Source of the DNA: Tubulanus polymorphus
Lineage: Eukaryota > Animalia > Nemertea
Direction: 5' to 3'
Length of the DNA stretch: 64,000 nucleotides
NCBI RefSeq assembly: GCF_964204645.1
Contig: NC_134026.1
Location: 10,377,950-10,441,949 of the forward strand
Shown piece by piece: positions 5,138 to 64,000 of this stretch. The stretch's first letter is position 1; each line of letters opens with the position of its first letter. The translations under genes and the position numbers were made by a program. A model generated the notes under the pieces. That model was not told where the DNA came from and did not search any database. It worked only from the letters and a program-made list of their open reading frames with translations.

Positions 5138-5242
5138 GACCCAGTTCCACAGTTGTGAGTTAAGATTTGACTCAGAGTTGATTGGAAAAAAAACTGGTTT
5201 TCATAGAGAGTTAACTCTAATTCACATCTGTGGAACTGGATC
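5138..5242. mobile_element. Harbinger/PIF-type MITE
   Basis: TIR gacccagttccacag / ctgtggaactggatc with a 3-bp TSD (CAG at 5135-37 and 5243-45). Same family at 30558 and 53803. Confidence 0.75.
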
Positions 5243-13903: not shown

Positions 13904-16900
13904 CTGAAAACAAGAAAGAAATTGCTTTAGATGGACTTGACTTTGGTCAGTTTCAACTTTTAATAAAACTCATTTATTATAACGAAAATTCTTGAATGAC
14001 ATCTAGGAAATAATGATTATCGGAATTTTAGACTCAATAATGTTTGTAATTTTAATAGATCCTGAGAGAAAATGATGTAAAACAACTTGCAACACACAGG
14101 ACAGCTTATTTTATAAACAAATGCTTCACAAAAGTCATGGAAAAACAAATGAAACCAAAATCTTTTGAAACGTACACTTAAAGTACGATATTGTCACATT
14201 ATTGGATACCTGATCTAAAACCACAGATCAAGTATGAAAGAAGTATGGAGTATAAAGAAAATTGATCTAAAACTCTCCACTGGGCCCAGTTTCCCAAAAA
14301 GGATTAAGTCCTAAATCGATCTAAGATAAGCTGAATTAATGAAGAAATTAAATCGATTTGAGAGTTAAACCTTTTTGTGAAACTGGGCCCTGGAGCAGTA
14401 ACAAGCTCAAATCTGGCTATTTTAGACACTGACATAACTGAAGTGGCCAACTAGGATGACCTACATAGATCTAAAACAGTAGAGCTCATTCTCCTAATGA
14501 CTTTAGTCCACATATCAAGTCATAAGAAAATCAGTATAAAACTGTAGACTATAGAATGGGAACAAGCCTCAAAATGGCTATTTCACACACCAAAATGACT
14601 GTGGTGGCCATCTTGGATGACTTATCCTATACGTTAAAAAAAATAAAGTTCATCCTTCTTCTATCGTAAAACCACAGATCAAGTTGTAAGAAAATTAGTC
14701 TGAAACTGTCGATTGTAGAGCGGGAACAAGCTCCAAAATGGGTATTTCACACACCAAAATGACTGTGGCAGCCATATTGGATAACCTACATAGGTCAAAA
14801 ACAATAGGAATCATCCTCCTCCAACCTAAAACACCTATATCAAGTCAAAAACCACAGGGACTTGTCACAATTGATACTGAATGAATAAAACCAATATCAA
14901 TGACCAGGTCCACTATCCCTGTATAATATAAAAAACAAGGGTGGCAACAAATTTTCAATCTGACAATGACTTCTCCACTTCAATCGACTGTAATTCCAAA
15001 AATTCTCAACCGATTCACATGAAATAAGCTTTAATACAACCTAGAAGACTTTCTGCTTCCAACGAGCCTTTAACCACCACTCTAGGACAATTATCTCACA
15101 ACGAAATCACCGTTTTTTGACGAGAGATAGCTCAAATTGGAGGTGTACCGATTCTATGGTGGACAGCAAAATGGTCGTATTTTTCACTTCAAACGATGAT
15201 TTCTATGTGAAATCTTAGAGATAACCCCAACAAACCATACATTTTTTAAAACTACGCGGTCATACCTGTACGCTTATCTCATTTATTTGTATAATCCACG
15301 CGATGGGTGAGCTCGCAAGCTCAAAATCGAACAAATATACGAAAAAGTCACCTCGCACTATCGCGCTGGCGGCCATTAATCACGTGACGTGCAGGTTCGG
15401 GCTATGTTAATAAAACCGCGACAAGTCTACGTCTGTAGACTTGAAAAAAGGAAATGTTTGCTAATAATACCACCCCTCAGACGAATGTTGCACTATATTT
15501 TCATAATACGGATATTTTATTAATTAACAGAACTTTTAATAAATTTTGTAATGTTTTTCGAAATCTCTAAGCCAATCAATGCGCGTGAAATATTTAGCCC
15601 GTTACTACGATATCACGTGATTAATGGCCGCCCAGTTGATGACAAGTTGAACGCCGTGTTCGTCCTCATTTTCGATTTTGAGCTTGTGAGCTCACCCATC
15701 GCGTGGATTATACAAATAAATGAGATAAGCGTACAGGTATGACCGCGTAGTTTTAAAAAATGTATGGTTTGTTGGGGTTTTCTCTAAGATCTCACATAGA
15801 AATCATCGTTTGAATTGAAAAAAACGACCATTTTGCTGTCCACCATAGAATCGGTACACCTCCATTTTGAGCTATCTCTCGTCAAAAAAAGGTGATTTCG
15901 TTGTGAGATAATTGTCGGAGAGTGGTGGTTGTAGGCTCGTTCGAAGCAGAAAGTCTTCTAGGTTGTATTAAAGCTTATTTCATGTGAATCGGTTGAGAAT
16001 TTTTGGAATTACAGTCGATTGAAGTGGAGAAGTCATTGTCAGATTGAAAATTTGTTGCCACCCTTGTTATTTTATTATACAGTTGCAGGGATACTGGTAC
16101 CCCCATCATTGGTCTCATCCATTATCAGTCGTGACAAGTCCCTGTGTCAAAAACGGCAAACTGTAGAATGGGAACAATATCTGGATGGCTGCCCTCCCGC
16201 TGGGCTAAAAAATGTCTCCATCTATAAGTTTGAATGATCAATAAAGGGAAAACAGATTATAAAGCATCGAATGTTTGAGGTAAGGGATGAAAATTCGGAA
16301 ATGAATATCATAAACACATAGGCCTACCTGTTTATGGCCAGAAAACATGAATCCCTCGGAGTTATCCATAATCACTTCGATTTCTTGTACGTACGCTGTT
16401 TTGTTGTGTATCGTATACGTAACTGGTAGACTTTCACGTACACTGCCATGAGATGGAAAATCTGCCTCGACGAACAAAGGAATATGCTCGACGGATATCG
16501 TTGGTAATGTCATCGTTGTCGTCACATATGGATGATCTTCTCCAGTGTTCTTTCTTTGGTAGAAAACAAAATACCCAAATATTTCACTATACATCTATCC
16601 TTTGAATTTATCAGTAGGTAATCAACTATTTCTATCATCGATTTCTCTAGATTTTGCGGCAAAGTTCGAAAGACAAGCACTTTCAACCCAACCTCCAAAT
16701 CAATAAAGCCTTATAGCTCTCCTAATGCACAAAAATCCTCTAAAATTAGGCAGTTACTACTGAAAATTTATCTACATCAATTTATGATTGTAGCATTTTT
16801 GTTTTCCTCCTGTTTGTATTGAGTCTCTGGTACATACGGTACCTTGTCAGATATACAAATTTCTCCCCGATTTGCCCTTATTCAAGATCTATTGCCCCAT

Positions 16901-32700: not shown

Positions 32701-35700
32701 CAAAATTTTTTAGATTTGTATATCCTAATATAACCTCGCTAACTGGAACAAGAGGACCATGAGGTCCTGTAAACGCGCATATTTTCCTAAGCTTCACAGG
32801 CGCGGATCCAGAGGGGGGTTTCAGGGGTCGTGACCCCCCTGCTCAGCTACCAAAAAAATGTTTTAATTGTTTTCTTGAAGGAATGTACTCAAGACAAAGC
32901 GGACGAACAGGACAAAGCGGATTGAACAGGACAAAGCGGATTGATTCAGGATTGGCAATAAAATTCAGAATGCCACATGGCTGAATTGTTATATCAGATG
33001 ATGCAGTAGATATGACATCTGTTGGAAGTATTTTAGGATCAGCACAATAGACCACTCATAAACCAACCAGACACTCTGAAGCGAAGTGATGACAGTCGGT
33101 GATCATAAAACATTAGTTAACCTAGTTTTGGATTCTGAATGCCCGTTAAGTTTGATCTATACACTCACAGTTCGTCAACTATCTTGTCTTTTATATTACT
33201 AAAACACGTTCCACAAATTGAGTGTCACACAATCGGATGTAATAAATGTCATAGGATATTAGTATCAGTGTCATATCTCAAGGGTGTGTCATCAAAGTTT
33301 GAATTTGAAAGGTGAAGTTTGTTTTTTCTGACGTCATCATGTGGAGCCAGCGGCCATTGTTTTTTAAACATATAAGAAGCAAGACATTTCATCTCTGATT
33401 TTCTAATAACCACAGATACAATATCAATAACCCCAGGAACTCTAACTTTATCCCAAGCCCATCGGTAAGTGCCTGTGATGCTGCAGCAGGGTGACTACTA
33501 TCTACTTGTTCCGTGTTTTTGCTGTAAAGCAAGACTTTATCTGTGGTCTGATGAAGGACGGCAGTAGGAAAGGCCAGATTTGTTATATTGACAGCAACAT
33601 ATACAGACTAATATCTTTTTCATAGGAATTCTAATTTCCCATATGAAAAGATGATTATGAAGTTGTAAAATTATGATGACAAGTGCGAAGAGCACAAAAC
33701 ACAATTCGCGAGAGAAAATGTGCAAACAACATAAATACCATTTCCCTGTGTTTCCTGAGATTTAATCAAGTTTATCTCAATGTCACATGATGTCTCGATT
33801 TTAATGAAGTGCTTGGACTACTCACTGCTTAGCCATCCAAGCACTGTGTTCAAATGCTAGTTCTGGACTGCCCACACGACTTTTGAAGAAATCAATATGT
33901 TTTCGAAACTGCGCAATGGAATCTAATGGAACATTGTGTTGGAAAGATATACGACAAATCTGCAAAAGGAAGAAAAAATACACATATACAAATATTTTTG
34001 AGATGGCAGAACGATACCTTTATAACATTTCAAATAGTTGTGATTGAGACGTGATGAGAATAGTTGGATTCGGTTTAATCCAAATTGTAGAAGAAATAAA
34101 AGTGAAACAAAATTGTAATATTTACTTCGAATACATTCCCTGGGAAAATACACTATAGCCAGAATCCCAAAGAATGGAGGAGGGAGGCGACCAAAAGTCG
34201 ATTTAAATTCTCTACACTTACACTCACCATAAAACTCTCTGCAGAAAACCGCAACAAACCCCAGGTGAGCCAGTGGAAAACCAAAAATCAGGGAGCTACC
34301 GTGCTGCTTCCTTTTCAGTTCCTAACTGTACTGGTAGATAATAACATGCCTATTATGACCCCGTTACGTTTGAGTCGAAAAAAGGAAATCAAACAACCCG
34401 GTGTCAACTGACTCCCGGATACCTTAGTAAGGCACTGACTGCCATTACCTCGATATTAACCTAAACCAGTAGGTAAAAAACTTAAACTCTAGAAGCAGCC
34501 TTGCCCAGGCTATATAAATGAAATCATGATTCATGTCTAAACTTAATACCTATAACAAAAGGAACCCTTACCACTAACTGTCTTAAGGTAACCTAGGCCC
34601 TGTAAAAGATGCCCACAACTTATATACATCAACTTTCTTATAGCTGAATACAGAAGAAACCCTTTAATCCCCAGGACCTGGTTTAAAAAGGTCTAACTGG
34701 GCCCGATGTTTTTTGGGTTTTTGTACGCTTATTCGTTGTGCAGTAACAATTGGACCCAACGTGGACAGTGAGCCTAACTGTCCAGAAACGTCCTTCAAAT
34801 AAAATGACGAGAAGGTAGATGGAGACGTCCAGAAGGCTGAACGACAAACCTGTTCCAAGGAAGCCCCCGTGAATAATGACCAGGATGTGGCTAATGCCCT
34901 CACCTGATGAGAATGTATCCCGAGCGGAGCCTGGGCCCCCTGAGAATGCAGAGTTTCTTTAATTAAAGATACAATCCATCTAGCGATTGTGTCCCTTGAG
35001 ATATCTCTCTTATCCCCTTGTCGGAGAGGAATAAAGAGCCTCTCCCTATCTTGTCTGTGGGGAAGTGTCCTCTCTAGGTACTCCTTTAAAGCTCTTACTG
35101 GACAGAGCGACGTATCAGGAAGATCGTGAGATACCCTATGCGTCAAAGCCTCGATCTTCCAAGATCTGGCTGCTACGGAAGCCTTTTGATTCTTGGCAAT
35201 GAAACTAAGACCAGGCCTTAAAATGACAAACCTATCTTGTGGACCAAAGGAAATATGACCCGGACGCATCGATAAAGCATGAACCTCCGAACGCCTCGCG
35301 GCCATCGCTAAGAACAGTAAGAACACCGTTTTCTTAGATAAGTCTGACAGGGTAGTATTGCGGATAGGCTCGAAGGGAGTGATCATAAGTGCTCTAAGAA
35401 CCACTGTTAAGTCCCATGGCGGGATATCTGAAACCTGTTTGGGTCTCTTAACCCCAAAACCTGATATCAATTGAGCTATTTTCACATCCTCCGTCAGTAC
35501 AGGGACGCCCGCTGAACGAAAAGTATGCCCTATTGCTGATCTGTAGCCTTTAATGGTTATAACCTATTCTTCTCTTCGAACAGGAAATAGAAAAAATCTA
35601 TTAACTCTGACACAGAGGGGTGGAGAGAATCCACCGCTCTCCTATTACACCAATCGGAGTAACATTCCCATTTGGAATCGTACAATGCTCCGGTAGAGGG

Positions 35701-38700
35701 ACGTTTGGATTCCACGATAAATCTGGCTGCCCCCGAAGAAATTCCTTGGTTTGAAAGCTGTCGCTTGACAATGGCCAGGCGTGTAGATTCAATTGGAATT
35801 GATTTGGGTGTAACTTGAATCGTCCCTGGGACAGTAACCCGGGGTAATTGGGTAGAGTGCGAGGGAAGTCCACCAGTAGATGCAGGAGTCTGACGAACCA
35901 TGTCTGAGTCGGCCAACAGGGAGCCACTAAGACCACTTGACAGTTGACTGCCCCCTTTATCTTCTCCAACACTCGATTGAGTAGGGGAGTGGGGGGAAAG
36001 GCATAAGCCAGCAGGTTGTCCCAACTCAGAGATAGAGCGTCCACCCCCCACGCCAAGTCGTCTTGAAATGGGGACACAAACACCGGACACCTCGTGTTGA
36101 AGCGAGTGGCAAACAGGTCCACGTTCGGACTTCCCATCAGGGCCCGGACTTGATTGGCTACCCTGACTGCCAATGTCCACTCGGTGGCTACTGGCTTGTC
36201 TTGGCGAGACAGAGCGTCGGCCACCACATTCAGGCTGCCGGCCAGGTGGGATACCGAAAGAATCATCCCTTGAGCCTGGACCCAGGTCAGAATCTGAGCT
36301 GCTAAGTTGGATAATGTTGGGGACCTGGTCCCCCCCTGGTTGAGCAAATAAGCCTTTACTGTGGAGTTGTCTGTTGACAGCCACACATGATGACCCCCTA
36401 ACCTCCTTTTGAAGTGTTTGAAGGCCTTTTGAACCGCTAACAGTTCCAGGTGATTTATGTGGAGATGAGCTTCTGCTCGAGACCAGTTCCCGGCTTTCTG
36501 AAAACCTTCTACATGTGCTCCCCAGCCCTGATGGCTGGCATCCGTGAATAGATGAATCGGGGCCTTCAATGGTGCTAGGGAGGTGCCTCTTGTCAAGTTC
36601 TGCGCGAGAGTCCACCACTCGAGGTCGGGGATTAGGTTCACCGGTGGTACCGGCAATAAGGTATCCCACTCTTCCCCTACCGATCTCCAAGCTTGCTTCC
36701 AGAATCTTTGAAGAGAACGGCTGTGTAAACGACCGAGCAGAACTACGAGTGCAACGGAACTCATCTGGCCCAAAACCTGGGACCAGGACCGAGCCGATCT
36801 GGGCGCCCCCGTCAGGACACCAAGCTGCCTCCCTCAGCTTCTGAACTCTGGCCTGTGCTGGTCTGACTAAGGCCTATGAGGTTATGATATAACGATTTAG
36901 AGCTGACAGATCTATTACCGTCCTTAAGCCCCCAGATGATTTTGGGACGGTGAAAATTCTTGAATACCATCCCGGGGATCCTAGAGGGATTTCTTCCAGC
37001 GATCTTTTTAAAATCATCTTGTTGATCGCTGGCATAACGTGGGACTCCTGCCCCCACTTCAGCCTCATTTCCACCCGCTGATGAGATAGATGCGGTTTGT
37101 GAACGAATTTCAGTCGGTATCCTTTGGAAACGATCTTTGTAGCCCAAGTGTCGCCAAATTTTTCTAGCCAGTGGGAAGAGGCGTCTTGAAGGCAAGAGCC
37201 CACTGGCCTGACATCTTCAACGGGTACCTGTGTTGGCGCGGCCACGAAAGGGTCGATTGAAGCCCCTACGTAATCTAGCCCTACCCCTTTGGGGATTGTC
37301 ACTGTAAGAACTTTGAGAATAACTGACATAGTTCAAATTGTTATTGTTGTCGCTTTGAGCTCTCTTGGAGCTTGTCCAACCCGCTTTTTTGAAGCTTAAT
37401 TTCCTGTTGACTTGAGATTGATTGTATCCGGGCTGATTTGCCGGTGAGTTTCTGTAAGTAGAGTTGCCGGCGTAATAACTAGGCTTTTTTGGTGTCTTCC
37501 ATGACTGCCTACCGGCCTTAGCCTGAGATTCTCTGATCTTGGTGGCCTCCGCATCGGCGGATGCGCAGCACCCAGAGAAAACCCGTGAGGAATTGCCCAG
37601 CGGTGCTCTGTATAGAGCTACTTTCACCGGTTCTGGAAGTTTGGAGTTGGCCAACAAGCTATATCTATTGATCAAGGCTAGGTTAGCCTGGATCCTTATA
37701 CCCAAAGGTACTTGGTGACACAACGCCTTGGCCATAGACTGTAGAATTCTCTCTATGGTCGCCACGTGTTCGGACATTGTCTCTAGATCCGGATTATCCT
37801 GGACTAGTTGAGACTTTACTTTTTCTAACTCGCCGTGCATGGCAACTAGTGAAATGTCTTGGAAAGACGTGATTTGACAAATGCTACGAGCTAATTGGTT
37901 CAACGCTCCCATTGCTTGTTTTGGTAAAGTGTAGGAGGGCGGTGGTTTTTTGGGTAGTCCTATCGTGGTTGACCCATCAGAGTCTAACTCAAAGTGTGGT
38001 TTGAATCCGGGATCATCAGCACCTGGTGTGGCGTAATAATAAGTCTTGTACCCTGATATGGGCGGATACAACGGAGAGAAAAATTTTGAATCCTTCATGC
38101 CTGCCTCTAATGGAGGATAAGACCAAGTATTGTCTGTACGCTTACCACCCCACAGTGTCGTGTCCAAAGTCTCACGCCATTCTTCTCTATATGCAGAATG
38201 TGGTGCTAAAACTAACTCTTCGGTGTCATCGGATGGACTGAAGATTTTGGCGGCCGACCCTCTTAGGCTGGGTTGTTTTAGGTTTGGCCTTGGTACCTCC
38301 GTACCGGGAGAAAACTTCTTTTACTAAGGAATGTCTCCCGTCTCTTCCATTGTGGATGGTGACGGAGAGCACGATCTGTGCATGTCTCCGTCCCTGGATA
38401 GACCAGGATCTTCTGGATCACGAGATTTTTCCTCGTCAGAAAAATCGTTGACATCATCCAACACTAACCCATCAGTTGGGTTGCAGGACAGCCCTGTTGG
38501 CACTGATGGAGGCTTGGGGCCCGGGGGTTCCTTACCTTTTAGTTGTTCCTTAAGGGAAGCGATCTCCTGCGAGAATATCGCTAGCATATTCTTGATGTCA
38601 CTAGAGTCAGACGGCTTATCAGCCGGTGATCTAGAACGTGAGCGACGACGTTGTTGCTTATGAGCACGCTTGCGCCTACGCCTGGTAGGTGACGGAGAAT

Positions 38701-41700
38701 AGGTTCGACTTACTCTAGAACGGGACCTAGAACGAGACCTTGACCCAGAGCTGGGGTCAGACGGTGAACGACGTCGTTTTTTATTAAAGCGCTGGTGCCT
38801 ACGTCTAGTAGGAGACGAAGAGTCGGACCGACTAAATCTCGATCGGGACCTGGACCTAGACAGGGATCGTCCCGGATCATTGCCCTGTTTCCGAGTATCC
38901 GGGCATTCAGGTGTATCAACCTTGCCCGATGAGGACGCTGGGGTCTTAGAAGGTGTATCAACCTTGCCCCAACGTTTAAATCTCGCTCCCCTAGGGGAGC
39001 TGGAGACGTCGTGATCCGACATGTTAATTATTGATACGATTTTTAGTACAGATTATTAATTTTCGTGAATGATGAGACGGAAATCAATTACGTTGAATGA
39101 TAATTATTAAATATATAAGGCGGGAGGAGCCGCTAAGAAAACAGCACGGCGCCCCCGCGAAACCGGAAGTAGAAAACCGGTGGCAAAATGTTGAAATGCG
39201 CATAGATTAAAAACGATCTCACCCGAAGTTCGACTTCTATTCCGAGATCAATCACTCTTATGTCTGTTTCTTATATCAATTAGAACGGATGTCCGATCCA
39301 ACACGAAGAATTTTAACCGATTTACGAGCACTGCCGAAACACGTTCTCTAGAGAACAAGCGCCAAGCAAAAAGAAGATGGCGTCTCGCCAGATGGCGCTA
39401 TGTTACGGCGCCCCTACCAAAAGTTACGGCGCCCCTACCTAATTTCTATAATCACCTTGTAATTAATGAATCCTGCGATTGATTTGATCTCCAGCAAATT
39501 TGTATCATGCATACGTAAGTCCAACACATGACCATAAGCTTGTTTGTAGTGCCTGTGAAAAATAGTGAAGAAACGGTAAAATAATTTGTGTTTCTCTACA
39601 GAAAGAAAAAAACTGCTAAAAATTTACGAAAAATACTCACTTCAATGCAATATGGGTATCTTGCTTGAGCTCGTTGAAAAATGCGATCTTAAATTGGTGT
39701 CGCACGAAAAGCAACTGGAAGAAATATTTGAAATACAATTATTTCAAGTTACTTCAAGTGACTACAATTAAAACAACACAGCTTCCTTCGTTTTTGGTCA
39801 ATAAGGGATAAGGAGAAATACTGAATTCACTACAATCTTTCCATTTTCTAAATTTCCAATTCGGTGCGACAATATAACAACCCGGGGTGGATCATAGGGA
39901 TCCCAATTCCATGTGCCGAGATGAATCATATGAAAGCGCTAACATCAAATATCAAGACAATTAGCTAAAACTTGTTGATATTTTCTTTGAAAATCCTTTT
40001 TCATCTGCAAATGAAGTCTGATAACACTAGATGGCCGCCAAATGCTTGACAATTGACCCTTCCAAAAGTGAAGTTGGCCATCTTGGTTCTGACAGGGTCA
40101 GTTTATAGGCTGCAGATGCGTCTAGGAAAGATATATATAAAGCAAATATCAAGACAAGCCATTGAATCAATTTCAAAACCTCTCAAAATAACTGGATTCC
40201 GTCTACGGACGCACAAATAATCCAATAGTCCATGGGGAATTACCGGGTAAGTCCCAACCTGAATGATATAAAATGACAAACTATGTCAACGCTAGCCTAA
40301 GAATTCAGACCACTATGAATACAAACGGTCACAGGACGGCCATCTTGTCTCCCATCAACCAAATTTTTCGTGATACTAGGCCCTAGGGGAATACATATGC
40401 ATACCACACCTAAAGACAATTAATAAAAGCCTTTTCAAAACTTCCTATGAAAACTTCAAAAATGTGCATGAGGGCTGATTTTGCTGAAGAAATCTTGATT
40501 CTGACTAGGCCAATTTTTGGGCTGACGGACAACAAGTGAATGTTAGTCCCATGTGGCCTAAAAAACCAGAACCAAAATTTTCTCTGACTTCGGCATTTAT
40601 CCTACTAATGGATGGCATGCTGTTTTATACAACAAATGGGCCTACATACCTGATGTGTAGTTTTATTCAGGAATTCCTTATGGGATTTTACTCTCCTCGC
40701 CTCTGTATAATAGTAACTCTGTGCAAGTTCGTAAAATGCATTCTCCAACCTGAATAGAATAGTTCACAATGATCAATGTTATGAAGCACAATCACATCTT
40801 TCTTAATGAAACTTAGATGAGTTATTTCAAAAACGTTATAGTTTTGGTTTCCGAGCAAAATATCTCAACATGAAATACATGCATGTTTCCTTCTAAAAGG
40901 GGACACTTGGTCAAATGCCTGATAATCTGACAATTTCAATATTCAACTCCCCTTGCGAAAAAAGAGAAATTTGTTCTAAACTAGTGACCTTGAAATTCAC
41001 CAAAATCTTAGAACATGTCATAAGCTTCAAATTTGCAATTGAACGTGGTTACAAAACATGCATACTAGAAGGTATCAATTCATATGGAAATAACATCTTA
41101 TTCCACTAATCATATCCTGGTGAAGATATACAGTCACATCAACGACCTTGTAACTCACCGCAATCACAGAACATGTGATGAGCTATAATTTTACAATGAT
41201 TATGTAACAAAATGTGCCTAGCTACCACTACATGGAAATACTAAGTTATTCAGCTATTCAATGCCCCTGGTGACCATATACAACAAGCAGCCTATCAGCT
41301 GATACAGCTCTGCTGTTTTACGATAAGATTTTACAAGGACCACCTACACAGCACTCTCAAGAGTTCAAATCCAGAAAACGGCTCCATAACTTTTTAGCCC
41401 TTGGCCCATAGCATCTACATACCAAGCTTTGTCAATATCAGATAATGATTGTAGGACTAGTAGCATTTGAAAGATTTTACAAGTGTGACCTGTACAGCGC
41501 CAGATTGGGAATATGGCTCAGCAACATTTAGCCCATGGCCAAAAATATTGACATACCAAATTTTGTCAAGATTGGATAATAATTGTAGGACAAGTAGCAA
41601 TTTAAAGATTTTACAAGCGCCACCTGTACAGCGCCCCCTAGAGATCAAATTGGTAAAACAGCTCCATAAATTTTTAGCCCTTGGCCTGTAGTATCTATTT

Positions 41701-53458: not shown

Positions 53459-54110
53459 GGAATTACGGTCAAAACGTTCTCATGTCAAAACGTCCTCGCG
53501 CCAAAACGTCCTCCAGTCAAAACGTCCTCGGTCAAAACGTCCTTGTCTGTATTAGGGGTCTATGTCCTTTCCACACTCAATCAACAGTAGTGGGGAGAGG
53601 GCAGCTACTCACCAGTCACCAGGAACCTGATCAGAAGTTTTAAAAAATCTGAACTTTTTTTAGATGTATCTAGACCCCTCCTCCGATAGTATGTAATAAG
53701 TATGTTGTAAAAAACGTTTGTCTTATGTTTTAAATACTTTCATTTTCTGTTTTTGTAAATATTGATCGACTGCCTCATACGCCACTATACATTAAACGTC
53801 AGGGTCCAGTTCCACAGTTGTGAGTTAGAGTTAACTCTGAGTTAAAATTAGTTCATTTTCAATGAGTTAACTCAGGGTCAAATTTTAACTTAGAACTGTG
53901 GAACTGGACCCAGTATATTTAGCTTATTACTTGGATTACAGTAGTAATAACTATATGCATTGACGTAATTTATTGTATGATAAAGTTATTCTGGCGTGAG
54001 TGAGGACGTTTTGACTGACGAAAGTGAGGACGTTTTGACCGACAAAAGCGAAGACGTTTTGACCGGGTATGCAAGGACATTTTGACATGAGGACGTTTTG
54101 ACCCGACACC
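53459..54110. mobile_element. MULE-like non-autonomous element with gtcaaaacgtcc subterminal repeats
   Basis: 5 copies of caaaacgt(c/t)c on the left and 5 of gacgttttgac-like on the right. GG...CC ends. 10-bp TSD aggatgcaca / atgatgcaca (1 mismatch). Confidence 0.68.
53803..53910. mobile_element. Harbinger-type MITE nested in the previous element
   Basis: TIR ggtccagttccacagtt / aactgtggaactggacc with TSD CAG. Confidence 0.8.
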
Positions 54111-54962: not shown

Positions 54963-57150
54963 GGGTCATTCTTAAGAATCCGCAGACCTGCCCTGAGAGG
55001 CGACATGGCTTCTCAGGGCAGGAACCTGCCCTGAGAGGCCATTGGCGCAATTAAGCAGTATAAATGGAAAACTCGGCTATAATTCTGATGAAACGGCGAA
55101 CTATTTCGCCGATGTTTGCATGCACATTGTCGAGTATCATGAAATTAAATGGATTAAAATGAAATAGATTAAATGTATTGATATATCGATACTTAACAAA
55201 TAAACGAAAGTAATATTTCAATTAAAATTCATTCATAATAAGAAATGTATTTTTAAAAAGTCATGTAGTAACCGACGACGGAAAGTTATGGGGATTATAT
55301 AAATTTCAAAGCATTAATTTAATCATTCAAATATCCTATAGGCCTACATAAACAATTTGTGTCGTCCACTGATATAAGTGCGTTTCAATATGCTGTATAT
55401 TCTTATTCAACTGTGAATTTTTTGGGGGTTTCTACTGCTTTCGCAGCAACTCTATTGTAATTCTGCTGATCATATTTTTCTTCGGGGTAAGGGTTGGTTG
55501 ATCATATGTCATATTATTTTTTCGTTAGGTTAATTACCTAAGCGCAGGCCAACTTTTATCAGTTTTATACTTTATCTAATGACAATGGCATAATTATAGT
55601 TGCCACAAGCAATAAGGCATACACAATTAAATCTAATCTGATCAGCCCTGCGGGTGCAATTATATACGTAGTCTACTGTCGTCAACCTGCCCTGAAAGGC
55701 CAGTTTAACTACTGCAGTTTGAGTTCTGCAGATCACCTGCCCTGAGAGGCCAGTTCAACTGCTGCAATTTGACTTCAGATATCAACCTGCCCTGAGAGGC
55801 CAGTTCAACCTGCAGATTGACTTCCGATGTCAACCTGCCCCGAGAGGCCAGTTTCATTCTGCAGATATCACCTGTCCTGAGAGGCCAGTTTCATTCTGCA
55901 GATATCACCTGTCCTGAGAGGCCAGTTTAACTGATGCAGTTTGACTTCTGCAGATCACCTGCCCTGAGAGGCCAGTTTCATTGCTGCAGTTTGACTTCTG
56001 ACACCAACCTGCCCTGAGAGGCCACTTTCATTCTGCAGAAATCAACCTGCCCCGAGAGGCCACTTTCATTCTGCAGAAATCAACCTGCCCTGAGAGGCCA
56101 GTTCAACTGCTGCAGTTTGACTTCCGATATCAACCTGCCCTGAGAGGCCAGTTCGACTGCTGCAGATTGATTTCCGATATCAACCTGCCCTGAGAGGCCA
56201 GTTTAACTGCTGCAGTTTAGTTCTGATATCAACCTGCCCTGAGAGGCCAGTTTCGTTCTGCAGAAATCAACCTGCCATGAGGCCAGTTTTGATTCTGCAG
56301 AAATCAACCTGTCCTGAGAGGCCAGTTTCATTCTGTAGATATCACCTGCCCTGAGAGGCCAGTTCAACTGCTGCAGTTTGACTTCCGATATCAACCTGCC
56401 CTGAGGGGCCATTTGTTGCAAGTGCATTCATATCTATTGATGCAAACAATGTATAGAAATACGTATGCAATTGTAACACAAAAAAGTGAAGTGCAAAGAA
56501 ATTGGTCGAAGAAACATAGCACGTTAATTGTAAATTATAGATTACAAATAAAAACAGCGCCGCTTGGAATCATATAATTTAATTGTTACAAAAACTTGTA
56601 TCATCGTTATCATTAATTACCTAACATAGCAGCAAAATACTATTCCTGAGAATAATTGTGATTTTTCTTCTTCATTAAGTTATAGATGAAATTTTTGATG
56701 ATGTTTTGATAAGAAATGTTCCCACAGAAAAAAGTTTTTTTCATTTCTTTATTTCTATGAAAAATATTAGTATTTTTTAATTTGTTTCTGAAAAATACCA
56801 ATTCTAATTCTATTTTCTTATATATTTCAACAAAAATTCATATTTTGATTTTAGTTGTAACTTTTGTTTCCCTATCGTCTTGACTTATTAACTGTTTTAG
56901 CTTAATATGATTAAAAGCATTTGTATTTCTTAATTTATTTCTATAGAATACAGCGTAGTCTTCTATTGTATGATCGAAAACTTTAGTTTGAATCTCGAAT
57001 ATCCCGATCACCTTGCCACCATTTCAGCTCTCTGTTGAATGGGTTTTCATTTTCTATTGATTCAAACGACTGGCCTCTCAGGGCAGGTTCCTGCCCTGAG
57101 AAGCCATGTGGCCTCTTAGGGCAGGTTCTGGAAATTCTGCAGAATGACTC
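54963..57150. mobile_element. Non-autonomous TIR element (GRG...CYC ends, Sola2-like) with an internal satellite
   Basis: ~80-bp TIRs: gggtcattc...cctgccctgagaggcgacatggcttctcagggcaggaacctgccctgagaggcca versus the reverse complement of 57071-57150. No TSD resolved. Confidence 0.7.
55683..56411. repeat. Tandem array, about 17 copies of caacctgccctgagaggccagtt in alternating ~38 and ~50-bp units
   Basis: Core motif counted by eye. Spacers are variants of tcattctgcagaaat or caactgctgcagtttgacttccgatat. Confidence 0.9.
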
Positions 57151-57741
57151 ATATTGGATGTTAACCGAAAACCACGATCCACCAATTCAATCCAATATGC
57201 ATTTATTGTTCCCAATCGATGACGGAATCATGAGTCAAAAGCGAGGCATAGAGAATACTAACGGAGAACTTAAAACTGATAAAAGATTGGTTAGTAAAAA
57301 AAGGAAGGATAAGAAAAGAGAAAAGCTACAAAAAGAAGTCGTCGTGCATTGCATCGCTGACTGAGGACTGACTTAGACAGACTCAATACGATAAAGTATT
57401 GAATTGGCTATTGAGCAACGCCGCCAACAGCCGTTGGGAATGGCAGCGGCGGAAATATAGTGAAATGAAAAGAAAGAATCGATTTCCTAGAAAATGGTTT
57501 CATAAACCTAGAAAGCTTCATTTGGGCCTACTAGAGTACCGGTACTTTATCTTTTGACAAAGCGGCCGTGGGTGGACTATCGTCCGATGTTTACGCTATG
57601 GCACCGTGAGGAATATGGGTATGGGAACGATAACCACACTCAAACGTGGTGAACGGACAATAAGATAAAAACCCACTATCTACAGATTAAAAGAATTTAA
57701 AAACAAGAATTTACTTATTCAATCTAAAATATATAGAATAA

Positions 57742-57769
57742 ACGACGTTTCGATCTCACCCTAGAGACC
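57742..57769 (-). ncRNA. 3' half of a minimal Penelope-type hammerhead ribozyme (5' half at 63135-63150)
   Basis: The empty-site reconstruction on the - strand reads acCTGACGAt-ggtctc-tagggt-gagatc-GAAAcgTC-gt. Confidence 0.65.
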
Positions 57770-58234
57770 AGTAATAGGGGTAATGGGCTTTCAAGCCAAA
57801 GGTCGAACGGTCGAGCTCATAAAAAATGAAAAATATGAAAATAATAACAATTTCTACTTGAATTAGTCGCGAAACTCATAAAAAAATGAAAAATAATTCT
57901 CACACACTCGAATTTATTTTTCATTTTTACTCGCTAGAAAAAAGTGTGAGTAAAGTGTGAGTGAAATAAATTCGAGCGTGTGAGAATTATTTTTCATTTT
58001 TTTATGAGTTTCACTCCTAATTCAAGTAGAAATTGTTATTATTTTCATGTTTTTCATTTTTTAATGAACTCGACCATTCAACCTTTAACCTGAAAGCCCA
58101 TTACCCCTATTACTCTTAAAATATTCATATACATGAATAAAATATATATGAATAACATATAAATTGATAGATTATTCAATATAAAAGTGTGAGTGAAATA
58201 ATTCATATTTAAAACATTGAATATTTATATTTGA

Positions 58235-58885
58235 ATGAGTTTTAATAAAAGTTTTGTTATTAAAATGAAGACAGAAGAAGAAGAACCCAACTTTAAAATC
58301 GAAATCAATGAAACCAATAAATCATTTTCACAGTTTAACATTAAAAATTATATTTCAGCAACAAATCTAGTGTCCGCAAGGTATTATAAAATTGATGACA
58401 TTACTATGATTAATCAAATATCATCAAATGGAACATATTTAATTACTGAACTGATAGATACTTTTGATAATGGCGTTAAAAATCCTAAAATGTTCAATAC
58501 AGTTTTTAATTTTAAAGGAACTTTAGATGAAAACATAATTAATATTCTTAAAACTCCTTTCAATGAAAGAAATGATGATATAATACTTTCAAAAGATTAC
58601 AATGATTTGATTAACTTAAGAATTGAAAAAAGACAATTATATTATTTCAATTTTGATAATAAACAAATTATCTATAATGAAAATTCATCAAATATTGGCA
58701 TTCAATGTGAATTAGATAATGAAAAATCATTTAAAGATATTGCAGTTCAATGTAAATTAGATGATGAATTTAGAAAATTCAATCCTAATGAAAAAGTGCA
58801 TTGTTATTGCGGAGGTAAATATTTAAAATCACATAAATCAAAGCATTATGAAACAATTAAACATAAAAACTGGTGTAAAGAGTAA
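58235..58885 (+). CDS. Intronless 216-aa hypothetical protein with a C-terminal CxC-H-H zinc-finger-like motif (left-arm copy)
   Basis: Intact ATG-to-stop ORF in very AT-rich DNA, ending EKVHCYCGGKYLKSHKSKHYETIKH. Three full-frame homologous copies occur in the window. Confidence 0.75.
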   Translation: MSFNKSFVIKMKTEEEEPNFKIEINETNKSFSQFNIKNYISATNLVSARYYKIDDITMINQISSNGTYLITELIDTFDNGVKNPKMFNTVFNFKGTLDENIINILKTPFNERNDDIILSKDYNDLINLRIEKRQLYYFNFDNKQIIYNENSSNIGIQCELDNEKSFKDIAVQCKLDDEFRKFNPNEKVHCYCGGKYLKSHKSKHYETIKHKNWCKE

Positions 58886-58937
58886 CAATTCTACATTATA
58901 ATTATTTAATTGAGTTAAATGTTTTAAATATCTAATA

Positions 58938-59685
58938 GACTGTTAAAATGATAAATTGTTCGACTGTTGAAATGATAAGACAGTTGAAATGATAAATTGT
59001 TTGACAGTTGAAATGATAAATTGTTTGACAGTTGAAATGATAAATTGTTTGACAGTTGAAATGATAAATTGTTTGACAGTTGAAATGATAAATTGTTTGA
59101 CAGTTGAAATGATACATTGTTCGACTGTTGAAATGATAAGACAGTTGAAATGATAAATTGTTTGATAGTTGAAATGATAAATTGTTTGACAGTTGAAATG
59201 ATAAATTGTTTGACAGTTGAAATGATAAATTGTTTGACAGTTGAAATGATAAATTGTTTGACAGTTGAAATGATAAATTGTTCGACTGTTGAAATGATAA
59301 GACAGTTGAAATGATAAATTGTTTGACAGTTGAAATGATAAATTGTTTGACAGTTGAAATGATAAATTGCTTGACAGTTGAAATGATAAATTGTTTGACA
59401 GTTGAAATGATAAATTGTTTGACAGTTGAAATGATAAATTGTTTGACAGTTGAAATGATAAATTGTTCGACAGTTGAAATGATAAATTGTTTGACAGTTG
59501 AAATGATAAATTGTTTGACGGTTGAAATGTTAAATTGTTTGACGGTTGAAATGATAAATTGTTTGACAGTTGAAATAATAAATTGTTTGACGGTTGAAAT
59601 GATAAATTGTTTGACGGTTGAAATGATAAATTGTTTGACAGTTGAAATGATAAATTGTTTGACAGTTGAAATGTTAAATTGTTTG
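58938..59685. repeat. 24-bp minisatellite (gttgaaatgataaattgtttgaca)n, left arm
   Basis: About 31 units, with recurring 17-bp variants gttgaaatgataagaca. Confidence 0.95.
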
Positions 59686-59877
59686 GTTGTAAATTTAATT
59701 GTTATTTGATTTAATCATTTAAAAGTTTAATATTTTTAAAATGATTATAAAATATTTAATTAAAAACTAGCAAATATTTTATAAACTGTTTAATTTTTCT
59801 CTTAAATAAATGGATGGTTTCATCCCAACTGGGAAAAGTGATTTGAAACATTATTTAGCAGCAGGCGGATTAATATT

Positions 59878-59979
59878 ATAGAAATCAAAAAGATTTAAAT
59901 AAAAAAACAATAAGTTACTTTATCTAATACTAACTTATTTAACTTATTGTTTTTTTATTTAAATCTTTTTGATTTCTAT
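59878..59979. repeat. Perfect 40-bp hairpin at the inner end of the left arm
   Basis: atagaaatcaaaaagatttaaataaaaaaacaataagtta (59878-917) and its exact reverse complement (59940-979), with a 22-nt loop. Confidence 0.9.
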
Positions 59980-60396: not shown

Positions 60397-60714
60397 TTAT
60401 TTTGATTCATATAATTTTTCATCAAGTTCGTGAAGATACATGTGATTCCTTAATGATTTTTTATTTTTATATCTTTTATTGCATATTTCACAGCTTTTAA
60501 TATTATTCAATCTATCTGAAATATAATTCATATTTTCTACTAATTCAGTGTATCTAATTTTACAGCAATCATAGAATTCTAACAACTGTTTTATAGTATA
60601 AACTGAGAATGAAAATAAACCTGTAAGCATAATAATTGATTTAATATTCTGTTGATTTTTATATATTAGATGTAATATTTCTAATACCTTATTTTCACTC
60701 ATTTTTATAGACAA
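60397..60714 (-). CDS. 105-aa hypothetical protein with one C2H2 zinc finger and an N-terminal hydrophobic stretch
   Basis: CEICNKRYKNKKSLRNHMYLH fits CX2CX12HX3H. IIMLTGLFSFSVYTI is hydrophobic. Confidence 0.62.
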   Translation of the reverse strand: MSIKMSENKVLEILHLIYKNQQNIKSIIMLTGLFSFSVYTIKQLLEFYDCCKIRYTELVENMNYISDRLNNIKSCEICNKRYKNKKSLRNHMYLHELDEKLYESK

Positions 60715-60749: not shown

Positions 60750-60968
60750 TTAATCCTCTAAATCATTTTCTAAATTAACTTTTCTATTGTTATTCTTTCT
60801 GTGATTGTTTCCATTTAACTTCTTTAATTTCTTGCTCAATTTTATATTTTCATTCATCAAATCCTTACTGATATTTTCATAATAAAAGAAAAGCGCAGCC
60901 AATATTAATCCGCCTGCTACTAAATAATGTTTCAAATCACTTTTCCCAGTTGGGATGAAACCATCCAT
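60750..60968 (-). CDS. 72-aa predicted single-pass membrane protein with a basic tail
   Basis: YLVAGGLILAALFFYY is transmembrane-like. A truncated mirror copy of the 5' end lies at 59810-59881 on the + strand. Confidence 0.5.
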   Translation of the reverse strand: MDGFIPTGKSDLKHYLVAGGLILAALFFYYENISKDLMNENIKLSKKLKKLNGNNHRKNNNRKVNLENDLED

Positions 60969-61092
60969 TTATTTAAGAGAAAAATTAAACAGTTTATGAA
61001 ATATTTGCTAGTTTTTAATTAAATATTTTATAATCATTTTAAAAATATTAAACTTTTAAATGATTAAATCAAATAACAATTAAATTTACAAC

Positions 61093-61967
61093 CAAACAAT
61101 TTAACATTTCAACTGTCAAACAATTTATCATTTCAACTGTCAAACAATTTATCATTTCAACTGTCAAACAATTTATTATTTCAACTGTCAAACAATTTAT
61201 CATTTCAACTGTCAAACAATTTATCATTTCAACTGTCAAACAATTTATCATTTCAACCGTCAAACAATTTAATATTTCAACTGTCACACAATTTATCATT
61301 TCAACTGTCAAACAATTTATCATTTCAACTGTCAAACAATTTAACATTTCAACTGTCAAACAATTTATCATTTCAACTGTCAAACAATTTATCATTTCAA
61401 CTGTCTTATCATTTCAACAGTCGAACAATTTATCATTTCAACTGCCAAACAATTTATCATTTCAACTGTCAAACAATTTATCATTTCAACTGTCAAACAA
61501 TTTATCATTTCAACAGTCGAACAATTTATCATTTCAACGGTCGAACAATTTATCATTTCAACTGTCAAACAATTTATCATTTCAACTGTCAAACAATTTA
61601 TCATTTCAACTGTCAAACAATTTATCATTTCAACTGTCAAACAATTTATCATTTCAACTGTCAAACAATTTATCATTTCAACTGTCAAACAATTTATCAT
61701 TTCAACCGTCAAACAATTTATCATTTTAACCGTCAAACAATTTATCATTTCAACTGTCAAACAATTTATCATTTAAACTGTCAAACAATTTATCATTTCA
61801 ACTGTCAAACAATTTATCATTTCAACTGTCTTATCATTTCAACAGTCGAACAATTTATCATTTTAACTGTCAAACAATTTATCATTTCAACTGTCAAACA
61901 ATTTATCATTTCAACTATCAAACAATTTATCATTTCAACTGTCAAACAATTTATCATTTTAACAGTC
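61093..61967. repeat. 24-bp minisatellite, right arm (inverted)
   Basis: About 36 units of tgtcaaacaatttatcatttcaac. Confidence 0.95.
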
Positions 61968-62019
61968 TATTAGATATTTAAATCATTTAACTCAATTCAA
62001 TAATTATAATGTAGAATTG

Positions 62020-62670
62020 TTACTCTTTACACCAGTTTTTATGTTTAATTGTTTCATAATGCTTTGATTTATGTGATTTTAAATATTTACCTCCGCAATA
62101 ACAATGCACTTTTTCATTAGGATTGAATTTTCTAAATTCATCATCTAATTTACATTGAACTGCAATATCTTTAAATGATTTTTCATTATCTAATTCACAT
62201 TGAATGCCAATATTTGATGAATTTTCATTATAGATAATTTGTTTATTATCAAAATTGAAATAATATAATTGTCTTTTTTCAATTCTTAAGTTAATCAAAT
62301 CATTGTAATCTTTTGAAAGTATTGTATCATCATTTCTTTCATTGAAAGGAGTTTTAAGAATATTAATTATGTTTTCATCTAAAGTTCCTTTAAAATTAAA
62401 AACTGTATTGAACATTTTAGGATTTTTAACGCCATTATCAAAAGTATCTATCAGTTCAGTAATTAAATATGTTTCATTTGATGATATTTGATTAATCATA
62501 GTAATGTCATCAATTTTATAATACCTAGCGGACACTAAATTTGTTGCTGAAATATAATTTTTAATGTTAAACTGTGAAAATGATTTATTGGTTTCATTGA
62601 TTTCGATTTTAAAGTTGGGTTCTTCTTCTTCTTTCTTCATTTTTATAACAAAATTTTTATTAAAACTCAT
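62020..62670 (-). CDS. 216-aa hypothetical zinc-finger-like protein (right-arm copy)
   Basis: Differs from the left copy at 4 residues (S6N, T13K, G66E, I116T). Confidence 0.75.
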   Translation of the reverse strand: MSFNKNFVIKMKKEEEEPNFKIEINETNKSFSQFNIKNYISATNLVSARYYKIDDITMINQISSNETYLITELIDTFDNGVKNPKMFNTVFNFKGTLDENIINILKTPFNERNDDTILSKDYNDLINLRIEKRQLYYFNFDNKQIIYNENSSNIGIQCELDNEKSFKDIAVQCKLDDEFRKFNPNEKVHCYCGGKYLKSHKSKHYETIKHKNWCKE

Positions 62671-63164
62671 TCAAATATAAATATTCAATGTTTTAAATAT
62701 GAATTATTTCACTCACACTTTTATATTGAATAATCTATCAATTCATATGTTATTCATATATATTTTTATTCATGTATATGAATATTTTAAGAGTAATAGG
62801 GGTAATGGGCTTTCAGGTTAAAGGTTGAATGGTCGAGTTCATTAAAAAATGAAAAACATGAAAATAATAACAATTTCTACTTGAATTAGGAGTGAAACTC
62901 ATAAAAAATGAAAAATAATTCTCACACGCTCGAATTTATTTCACTCACACTTTACTCACACTTTTTTCTAGCGAGTAAAAATGAAAAATAAATTCGAGTG
63001 TGTGAGAATTATTTTTCATTTTTTATGAGTTTCGTGACTAATTCAAGTAGAAATTGTTATTATTTTCATATTTTTCATTTTTTATGAGCTCGACCGTTCG
63101 ACCTTTGGCTTGAAAGCCCATTACCCCTATTACTGAGACCATCGTCAGGTGTGAGACAGATCTT

Positions 63165-63257
63165 GGCGGCAAATATTTAAAATCACATAAATCAAAGCAT
63201 TATCAGACAATTAAACATACCAATTATGGAAAGAATAATAATTCTATATTGAAATAA
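63165..63257 (+). pseudogene. 5'-truncated C-terminal remnant of a diverged homolog of the 216-aa protein
   Basis: GGKYLKSHKSKHYQTIKHTNYGKNNNSILK*. Confidence 0.75.
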
Positions 63258-63438
63258 GATTAAGCTGTATGAGTAATTGGAAAATTTCTGAATATATAAT
63301 AGTTAAAACATGAAACGTGAAATCAGTTAATGAATAACTGTTAAACTGTTAGACTGTTAACAGTTATTCATTAACTAATATCACAATGTTTTAACTATTA
63401 TACATTTGAAATTTTCCAATTACTCATACAGCTTGATC

Positions 63439-63999
63439 TTATTTCAATATAGAATTATCATTCTTTCCATAATTGATATGATTCATTTTCTGATAATGCT
63501 TTGATTTATGTGATTTTAAATATTTGCCGCCACAATAACAATACACTTTCTCATTAGGATTAAACTTATTAAATTCATTATCTAAATCACATTGAATTCC
63601 AATATTTGATGAATTTTCATTATAGATGCTTTGTTTATTATCAAAATTAAAATTATATAATTGTCGTTTTTCAATTCTTAAGTTTATTATATCATTGTAT
63701 TCTTTAGAAAGTATTAAATCATAATTTCTTTCATTAAAAGGAGTTTCAAGAATATTTATTGTGTTTTTATCTAAATTACCTTTACAATTTAAAACTGTAT
63801 TGAATACTTTAGGATTTTTGACGCTATTATCTAAAGTATCTATTAGTTCAGTAATTAAATATGTTTCTTTTAATGATATTTGATTAATCATAGTAATATA
63901 ATCGATTTTATATTGGCTTCCATACACTAAATTTGTTGCTGAGATATAATTTCTAATGTTAAATAATGAAAATAAGTTATCAGTTTCTTTGATTTCGAT
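63439..63999 (-). CDS. Diverged homolog of the 216-aa protein (5' end beyond the window)
   Basis: The frame is open to the window edge (IEIKETDNLFSLFNIRNYISATNLVYGSQYKID...). Roughly 75-80% identical by hand alignment; ends CYCGGKYLKSHKSKHYQKMNH. Confidence 0.72.
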   Translation of the reverse strand: MEIKETDNLFSLFNIRNYISATNLVYGSQYKIDYITMINQISLKETYLITELIDTLDNSVKNPKVFNTVLNCKGNLDKNTINILETPFNERNYDLILSKEYNDIINLRIEKRQLYNFNFDNKQSIYNENSSNIGIQCDLDNEFNKFNPNEKVYCYCGGKYLKSHKSKHYQKMNHINYGKNDNSILK

Positions 64000-64000
64000 T

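What the first reader, a model, noticed from the sequence alone, without database searches (positions are those of the whole stretch)
57770..58114. Each end of the element is itself an imperfect ~345-bp hairpin
Seen: 57770-58114 (mirror 62792-63134) begins AGTAATAGGGGTAATGGGCTTTCA and ends with its reverse complement. Stems are about 150 bp around a ~44-nt loop carrying aaagtgtgagt twice. Outer and inner stems differ (ttcaagccaaaggtcgaacgg versus ttcaggttaaaggttgaatgg), yet outer matches outer and inner matches inner between the two ends, so the terminus occurs four times. Inference: either a hairpin telomere or self-priming origin, reminiscent of the mismatched terminal palindromes of linear DNA viruses, or a 345-bp mini-element whose two copies form a composite transposon around the cargo.
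Basis: partly seen in the sequence, partly recalled or inferred. Interest (0 to 1): 0.72.

Follow-up and report, generated by a model that had tools for sequence, protein, structure and literature searches.

The report
Hairpin-ended Maverick-like satellite element
A 5.4-kb mobile element with no copying genes of its own, in what is probably an animal genome, has ends resembling those of virus-like Maverick transposons, and each end is a 345-base fold-back shared with many other copies, which likely lets the DNA prime its own copying and would mark which of two near-identical tips is the real end.

Summary
57770-58114 and 62792-63134 are imperfect palindromes (150-bp arms, 44-nt loop; folding z -25 and -31). 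They are the tips of ~2.1-kb terminal inverted repeats of a 5,365-bp element with a 6-bp target duplication and AGT..ACT ends. It encodes no integrase, polymerase or capsid. Raw reads cross the loop and show a multicopy family carrying both arm types, so this is neither an assembly error nor a one-off. The composite reading is not supported: inner tips have no target duplication, and read depth does not fall where the inner tip meets the interior (621 vs 624). No flip/flop was seen, but the phased test is missing. New here: arm differences cluster just behind an identical 24-bp tip, and 8 of 9 transitions leave G.T pairs on the strand that ends 3', as a self-priming hairpin would need (p about 0.02, post hoc). 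Best reading (0.45): a helper-dependent Maverick/Polinton-like element with hairpin-primed, one-orientation ends. Palindromic tips are reported for protist virophages/PLVs (2026 preprint), and this scan noted a ~210-nt hairpin-ended animal Maverick on other DNA. No autonomous parent was found.

The parts
57764..57769 (.). Left copy of the 6-bp target site duplication GAGACC
   Evidence: same six bases at 63135-63140
57770..59877 (+). Left terminal inverted repeat (~2.1 kb)
   Evidence: 11 substitutions and 3 gap columns in 1169 columns, 2 in 192, outside the tandem array
57770..57919 (+). Left outer arm: AGTAAT tip, outer-type letters at arm positions 25-47
57920..57963 (+). 44-nt loop with AAAGTGTGAGT twice; identical at both ends
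57964..58114 (-). Left inner arm: second copy of the tip, inner-type letters, no target duplication beside it
58185..58202 (+). Further copy of the loop/stem-junction motif, 33 bases before the ORF start; candidate protein-binding site (inference)
   Evidence: reads show this unit tandemly repeated in other copies (joints 58230-58241 back to 58184)
58235..58885 (+). 216-aa ORF of unknown function with a C-terminal C2H2-like zinc knuckle; under purifying selection
   Evidence: dN/dS 0.25 against the sister copy
58938..59685 (+). 24-bp tandem array, 32 copies
59878..59979 (.). Perfect hairpin (40-bp arms, 22-nt loop) starting at the first base after the left TIR; likely fold-back scar
60397..60714 (-). 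105-aa ORF with one C2H2 zinc finger
   Evidence: PF00096 E 5.9e-05, below the curated cut-off; PF12874 just above it; one relative at 66% identity
60750..60968 (-). 72-aa ORF with a hydrophobic stretch; starts inside the right TIR, and its left-TIR copy is cut off
   Evidence: no Pfam family
60901..63134 (-). Right terminal inverted repeat (~2.2 kb)
61093..61967 (-). 24-bp tandem array, 37 copies
62020..62670 (-). Second copy of the 216-aa ORF (98% identical)
62792..62941 (+). Right inner arm
62942..62985 (-). Right loop
62986..63134 (-). Right outer arm, ending in ATTACT
63135..63140 (.). Right copy of the target site duplication GAGACC
63165..64000 (.). Sister element (80% DNA identity over the ORF): two tail-to-tail arms meeting at a hairpin at 63317-63384; left arm cut at 63165; runs off the window

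Best explanation
This is a 5,365-bp element with 2.1-kb terminal inverted repeats, a 6-bp target duplication and no replication or integration gene, likely a helper-dependent derivative of a Maverick/Polinton-like virus-like transposon, whose 345-nt terminal palindromes likely act as self-priming hairpins. Shown: the anatomy, the four tips, the fixed outer/inner difference in this copy, the multicopy family, the absence of core genes. Inferred step 1: on a freed or displaced single strand the 3' end folds back; on that strand the first 51 positions all pair (G.T wobbles), giving a primer-template junction that points into the element. Inferred step 2: copying gives head-to-head junctions that hold one hairpin unit; the differences just behind the identical 24-bp tip would let a helper's nicking enzyme or integrase tell the outer tip from the inner one, so ends are always made in one orientation and the unit is not released alone, by analogy with the asymmetric resolution of the MVM parvovirus left end. 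Inferred step 3: a retroviral-type integrase supplied in trans inserts the duplex with a 6-bp duplication. Inferred origin: the element is one end of a larger parent copied back on itself, since the unduplicated ORFs read inward from the right end and a perfect hairpin sits exactly at the left TIR boundary.
For: 6-bp TSD and AGT..ACT ends match vertebrate Mavericks, (AGT)2//(ACT)2 with 6-bp TSD, at 5 of 6 tip bases (PMC8097293 section 7; TSD). Gene-bearing ~2-kb TIRs and mobile polB-less copies are described in butterfly polintons. 8 of 9 transitions between the left arms (9 of 10 right) give G.T on the 3'-ending strand and A.C on the other; binomial p 0.02 one-sided; first 50 bp pair at -49.8 vs -41.7 kcal/mol. 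7 of 10 difference events lie in arm positions 25-51 (p 0.007 uniform, 0.011 GC-weighted). Arms differ by 8% while the two TIRs differ by about 1%, so the asymmetry is older than this copy's TIR pair. In run X5, 245 reads leave the inner arm at 58063 and continue with outer-type letters, at a depth of 569 near there, so both arm types are common. Further fold-back junctions at 59878-59979 and 63317-63384. Terminal palindromes beside TSDs, with a hairpin-priming model, are reported for protist virophages and PLVs (bioRxiv 10.64898/2026.07.28.741278 section 7).
Against: No autonomous parent, integrase, polymerase, capsid or nicking protein was found, so the link to Mavericks rests on ends, TSD and architecture alone. 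The G.T and clustering tests are post hoc and rest on about ten sites. All 8 G.T sites are also C-to-T changes on that strand, 4 of them at CpG by inspection, so strand-biased deamination explains them equally. In reads only about a quarter of the depth carries the outer letter at 57977 and 58049 (125 of 521; 143 of 554), so differences away from the tip are not fixed in the family. 228 reads join the inner tip from a different stem (58058), whose palindromy is unknown. Simple rolling-hairpin resolution predicts flip/flop, which was not seen; the model needs an added asymmetry step. An AGT-type tip is also what protein priming uses (established knowledge).
Confidence: 0.45

Rival explanations
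1. Ordinary protein-primed Maverick satellite. The palindrome is an old fold-back accident at one terminus, copied to both ends by TIR homogenisation and carried passively. The arm differences are drift, mostly C-to-T.
For: The element and its neighbour hold other fold-back junctions, so such accidents happen in this family. The differences are mostly C-to-T, several at CpG. Differences away from the tip are polymorphic in reads. A turn-around at the central bulge (joint 58012/58017; 102 reads in X5 and contigs of X1-X3) suggests that hairpin length can change.
Against: The first 24 bp of the inner arm are identical to the outer tip while positions 25-51 hold 7 of 10 differences. The strand bias of the mispairs. 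The palindrome persists in a family whose ORFs have diverged to dS 0.35, although the sister's own tip lies outside the window.
Confidence: 0.3
2. Foldback-type cut-and-paste DNA transposon of another superfamily with 6-bp duplications (hAT6, IS3EU or undescribed), where the hairpin serves as a transposase-binding end structure and no DNA synthesis is involved.
For: Long TIRs with internal tandem arrays are typical of foldback elements (recalled). hAT6 and IS3EU make 6-bp TSDs (PMC12730594 passages). No viral gene in the element.
Against: IS3EU ends there are TAYGG..CCRTA; these are AGT..ACT. The low GC (21-30% vs 38% for the rest of the window) and small compact zinc-knuckle ORFs fit a virus-like element better (inference).
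Confidence: 0.1
3. Composite transposon: the 345-bp unit is a mini-element of its own, and two copies mobilise the DNA between them, as in KolobokP or bacterial composites.
For: Each unit has the same 24-bp tip at both ends. Eukaryotic composite-like elements with solo units exist (PMC9587614).
Against: No duplication beside the inner tips. No solo unit in the window. The inverted repeat runs on for 1.8 kb past the unit, so the 'cargo' is itself TIR. Read depth is 621 inside the inner tip and 624 ten bases into the interior; abundant solos would cause a drop. KolobokP units are direct repeats with 3-5-bp TSDs.
Confidence: 0.07
4. Assembly or read artefact (fold-back chimera).
For: Palindromes are prone to such artefacts (established knowledge). 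Run X5 may share its source with the assembly.
Against: The arms differ at 12 fixed columns, mirrored at both ends. Clean 6-bp TSD. 69 short reads cross the loop, and contigs of three other runs carry the arm variants.
Confidence: 0.03

Closest known systems
Virophage subtypes 1, 2, 5, 6 and PLV subtype 4 of Halocafeteria seosinensis (bioRxiv 10.64898/2026.07.28.741278; section 7 and passages read; supplements not seen)
   Same: Palindromes inside the TIRs directly beside the TSD; the authors propose hairpin-primed replication and note an association with non-pPolB replication genes.
   Different: Protist host; 52-nt palindromes in the figured subtype against 345 nt here; those elements are complete with capsid genes, this one has none; fixed arm mismatches or a strand bias are not mentioned in the main text ('mismatch' and 'imperfect' 0 occurrences).
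Animal Mavericks/Polintons (PMC8097293, section 7 and passages; butterfly polintons, bioRxiv 10.1101/2025.02.07.637071, passages)
   Same: 6-bp TSD, AGT..ACT-type tips, long TIRs, in butterflies ~2-kb TIRs that duplicate genes, and copies still mobile without polB.
   Different: Tip is AGTAAT, not AGTAGT; 5.4 kb against 12.7-24.6 kb; no core gene; 'hairpin' and 'palindrom' do not occur in either paper's main text.
Parvovirus terminal hairpins, MVM left end (PMC1185569, passages)
   Same: Imperfect terminal palindrome whose unpaired bases go with asymmetric resolution of the dimer junction; one orientation reported for a left end.
   Different: Parvoviruses are ssDNA with an NS1 nicking protein and do not make TIR-plus-6-bp-TSD insertions (established knowledge). 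No NS1 or Rep gene here, and both ends are identical. This is a works-like analogy, not membership.
KolobokP composite-like transposons (PMC9587614, abstract and passages)
   Same: Four element tips per copy.
   Different: Units are direct repeats of ~450 or ~660 bp with short TIRs only, TSDs of 3-5 bp and frequent solos. Here the units are inverted, palindromic along their length, with a 6-bp TSD and no sign of abundant solos.

Membership tests
Maverick/Polinton (autonomous) | 6-bp target site duplication | tested here: met
   GAGACC on both sides
Maverick/Polinton (autonomous) | Long TIRs with AG..CT tips, commonly (AGT)2//(ACT)2 | tested here: met
   2.1-2.2-kb TIRs, AGTAAT..ATTACT, 5 of 6 bases as the common vertebrate motif
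Maverick/Polinton (autonomous) | Protein-primed PolB and retroviral-type integrase genes | tested here: not met
   Only ORFs of 216, 105 and 72 aa plus tandem-array frames; no such Pfam family in the four ORFs scanned
Maverick/Polinton (autonomous) | Packaging ATPase, protease and capsid genes | tested here: not met
Non-autonomous Maverick derivative | Shares its ends with an autonomous Maverick in the same genome | not testable with these tools
   No whole genome is held; no relative in viral or metagenome contigs
Palindrome-ended virophage/PLV (Halocafeteria type) | Palindrome within the TIR adjacent to the TSD | tested here: met
Palindrome-ended virophage/PLV (Halocafeteria type) | Capsid module and non-pPolB replication genes | tested here: not met
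   none encoded in the element; parent unknown
Rolling-hairpin replicon (parvovirus-like) | 3'-terminal hairpin able to prime synthesis | tested here: inconclusive
   Predicted fold pairs the last base and the first 51 positions on the 3'-ending strand; priming itself not tested
Rolling-hairpin replicon (parvovirus-like) | Flip and flop end forms | tested here: inconclusive
   Both window ends have one orientation; no loose end at 58114 or 58088-58091 among the six best-supported X5 rows (114-245 reads), 189 rows not shown; no phased data
Rolling-hairpin replicon (parvovirus-like) | HUH Rep/NS1 nicking protein | tested here: not met
   No such match for the element's ORFs; the model of the 216-aa protein was too poor to compare (pLDDT 37)
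Composite transposon / KolobokP-like | Terminal units mobile alone, with own TSD; direct orientation in KolobokP | tested here: not met
   Inverted units, no TSD at inner tips, no depth drop at 58114; genome-wide solo count not possible
IS3EU | 6-bp TSD with TAYGG..CCRTA ends | tested here: not met
   Ends are AGTAA..TTACT; definition from PMC12730594

The most novel reading that the evidence does not exclude
An animal lineage of Maverick-like elements has replaced protein priming by parvovirus-style rolling-hairpin replication with asymmetric resolution: 345-nt terminal hairpins are tuned with G.T wobbles on the 3' strand and carry an outer/inner recognition code behind an identical tip, and this 5.4-kb element is a natural copy-back (defective) genome of that system that still integrates with a 6-bp duplication.
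Probability: 0.25. Interest if true: 0.8.

Novelty: new variant of a known kind. Interest (0 to 1): 0.52.

Why it matters
How Mavericks/Polintons leave the chromosome and are copied has not been shown directly; the standard model is protein priming from a panhandle (as drawn in the preprint read). A 2026 preprint raised hairpin priming for protist relatives. A multicopy family with much longer hairpins and a fixed outer/inner code gives countable predictions: one orientation or flip/flop, absence of solo units, G.T strand bias across subfamilies, and which replication gene the parent carries. If the hairpins are passive, it is an ordinary non-autonomous element with an unusual end, still useful for annotation.

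Tried and rejected
No whole genome is held, so solos, insertion sites and the autonomous parent could not be counted. A second laying of reads, on the outer arm, gave no result; phasing of arm type to flank and the number of insertion sites stay open. Tip motif in viral contigs: 0 matches. In metagenome contigs: 11 of 11 loci match only over 18-24 bases, chance level. A gapped two-tip pattern gave 2 viral loci, neither palindromic (49-54% self-complementary) nor similar to the element. The 216-aa protein: 0 of 83 candidates scored in the 5.8-billion search; 13 weak hits in the representative library, nearly all confined to the zinc knuckle, 3 of them GIY-YIG proteins; no viral locus; no solved structure; fold pLDDT 37 with no match at E <= 0.001; PHROG and Pfam carbamoyltransferase hints are weak and were set aside. 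The 105-aa protein: one unnamed relative, no viral locus. The protein atlas did not complete. Rfam: 5 weak matches in the window, none in the element. No RNA holder listed. The original Polinton paper of Kapitonov and Jurka is not held. bioRxiv 10.1101/2022.05.25.493380 concerns protein beta-hairpins and is irrelevant.

Full report
Setting. The window is gene-poor eukaryotic DNA of about 38% GC. It carries a DIRS-like retrotransposon at 34.6-39 kb (RNase H and tyrosine-recombinase matches; the name DIRS is my recalled label). The host is probably an animal; that is inference, and the run list names it only as organism A. No whole genome is held.

The observation. The 24-nt tip is present exactly four times in 64 kb, against none in 100 shuffles. 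Each unit has arms of about 150 bp and the same 44-nt loop. Outer and inner arms differ at 12 of 151 columns on the left and 13 of 150 on the right. Outer vs outer differ at 2 columns and inner vs inner at 1. Both units fold at z -25 to -31.

The element. The units are the tips of inverted repeats 57770-59877 and 60901-63134. The element is 5,365 bp and flanked by GAGACC on both sides; the inner tips have no such duplication. Each TIR holds a 216-aa ORF and a 24-bp tandem array. The 1-kb centre holds a 105-aa C2H2 ORF and most of a 72-aa hydrophobic ORF. None matches an integrase, polymerase, capsid or Rep. The 216-aa ORF resembles other proteins only in a C-terminal zinc knuckle (13 weak hits) but has dN/dS 0.25 against the sister copy next door. 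Outside the arrays the two TIRs differ at 13 substitutions in 1361 columns, about 1%, so the 8% arm difference is older than this TIR pair.

Signs of fold-back origin. A perfect 40-bp-arm hairpin starts at 59878, the first base after the left TIR. The unduplicated ORFs read inward from the right end, and the left copy of the 72-aa ORF is cut at the TIR boundary. I infer that the element is one end of a larger parent copied back on itself. The neighbour at 63165-64000 is a sister (80% over the ORF) whose two arms meet at a hairpin at 63317-63384; its tip lies outside the window.

Family evidence. I laid 4 of the 10 listed runs on 57945-58930 at 94% likeness. In X5 (raw reads, 1934 Mb read) depth is about 94-233 on the ORF and about 570-735 on most of the inner arm. 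For a genome of 0.3-2 Gb (size unknown) that is roughly 15-240 ORF copies and 100-640 inner tips. 69 reads cross the loop. 245 reads leave the inner arm at 58063 and continue with the outer-type letters, so both arm types are common. Depth is 621 at 58077-58109 and 624 at 58124, so inner tips run on into the interior; abundant solo units would lower the second number. A 1:1 flip/flop should put many loose ends at 58114; none is among the six best-supported X5 rows (114-245 reads). This bound is loose: 189 loose-end rows and 132 of 172 letter rows are not shown, I do not know how the tool groups reads with unlike flanks, and the tables are not phased. Results against a fixed design: only about a quarter of the depth has the outer letter at 57977 and 58049, so distal differences vary; 228 reads reach the inner tip from a different stem at 58058; and an opposite-strand joint 58012/58017 (102 reads, also in contigs of X1-X3) most likely marks a shorter hairpin of about 200 nt, though another reading of the joint and a library artefact are possible. 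X5 may share its source with the assembly, and X1 and X3 are one sample.

Asymmetry. The first 24 bp of both arms are identical, and 7 of 10 difference events fall in positions 25-51 (p 0.007; 0.011 if G and C are four times as mutable). 8 of 9 transitions on the left and 9 of 10 on the right give G.T on the strand that ends 3' and A.C on the strand that ends 5' (p 0.02 one-sided for 8 of 9; the two ends are not independent). On the 3'-ending strand the first 51 positions all pair, and the first 50 bp are 8 kcal/mol more stable than on the other strand. Both tests were chosen after seeing the data. The same pattern is C-to-T on that strand, 4 of the 8 at CpG by inspection, so strand-biased deamination is a rival cause.

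Mechanism. I commit at 0.45 to a helper-dependent Maverick-like element whose 3' hairpins prime copying and whose tip-proximal differences mark the outer tip for cutting and integration. The split is about 0.75 for Maverick-like ancestry and about 0.6 for a working hairpin given that. The anatomy, multicopy state and lack of core genes are shown. Priming, asymmetric resolution, the helper and the copy-back origin are inferred. The analogy for resolution is the MVM left end, resolved asymmetrically at the dimer junction (PMC1185569, passages). The main rival, at 0.3, is a passive fold-back scar on an ordinary protein-primed satellite.

Comparison with what is known. Vertebrate Mavericks have 6-bp TSDs and (AGT)2//(ACT)2 tips (PMC8097293, section 7 and passages). 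Butterfly polintons have ~2-kb gene-bearing TIRs and mobile polB-less copies (bioRxiv 10.1101/2025.02.07.637071, passages). Terminal palindromes beside TSDs, with a hairpin-priming model, are reported in protist virophages and a PLV (bioRxiv 10.64898/2026.07.28.741278, section 7 and passages); its supplements were not seen and may list longer palindromes. KolobokP (PMC9587614, abstract and passages) and IS3EU (PMC12730594, passages) fail on orientation, TSD or tip. PMC12747079 and bioRxiv 10.1101/2023.10.16.562556 (passages) mention hairpins only for giant viruses and poxviruses. In the listings of searches I saw no paper on long terminal hairpins in animal Mavericks; I read passages of only some listed papers, and the library lacks most subscription journals and Repbase entries. 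This scan has unchecked notes on other genomes: a ~210-nt hairpin-ended animal Maverick with a Rep-like gene (e1-9909988), a hairpin near Giardia Polinton tips (e1-637947) and several palindromic Maverick satellites. They are leads, not support.

Verdict. A real feature and a new variant of a known kind. It is not filed as an autonomous Maverick, because the core genes are absent, and membership as a derivative could not be tested without the parent. Interest 0.52.

Noticed in passing
window 57730-57769 and 63135-63164: The site into which the element inserted reads, on the minus strand with one TSD copy removed, like a hammerhead ribozyme core (CUGANGA and GAAAC, motifs recalled) with the TSD as one strand of its middle stem. 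This fits a Penelope-type repeat and supports the TSD call. Stem I was not found, the predicted fold did not form a hammerhead, and Rfam had no match there.
   Followed up: partly
window 63165-64000: Sister element only 30 bases from the right end, with its left arm cut off; an almost pure snap-back with a very short centre.
   Followed up: partly
window 58184-58241: A unit starting with the loop motif is tandemly repeated in other family copies (joints back to 58184-58191, 11-35 reads each); possible iteron or promoter element.
   Followed up: no
window 58045, 58058, 58140, 58232: Large groups of loose ends (116, 228, 171, 116 reads in X5) mark sister subfamilies that share parts of the end but differ in stem or interior.
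   Followed up: no
window 34664-39052: DIRS-like retrotransposon on the minus strand with overlapping RT/RNase H and tyrosine-recombinase frames.
   Followed up: partly
window 14930-16072: Inverted repeat with 402-bp arms, 97% complementary, 339 bases apart; probably a small non-autonomous DNA transposon.
   Followed up: no
window 54986-57144: Array of 38-50-bp repeats (55662-56431) with related short palindromic units at 54986-55041 and 57071-57128, just left of the element; possibly another foldback-type element.
   Followed up: no
window 5131-5247 and 53800-53913: Two related ~115-bp palindromic units, probably MITE copies, hit weakly by plant miRNA models.
   Followed up: no
window 889-1302: Open frame that looks like the last exon of a sugar kinase gene (recalled resemblance to sedoheptulokinase; no Pfam match).
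   Followed up: no
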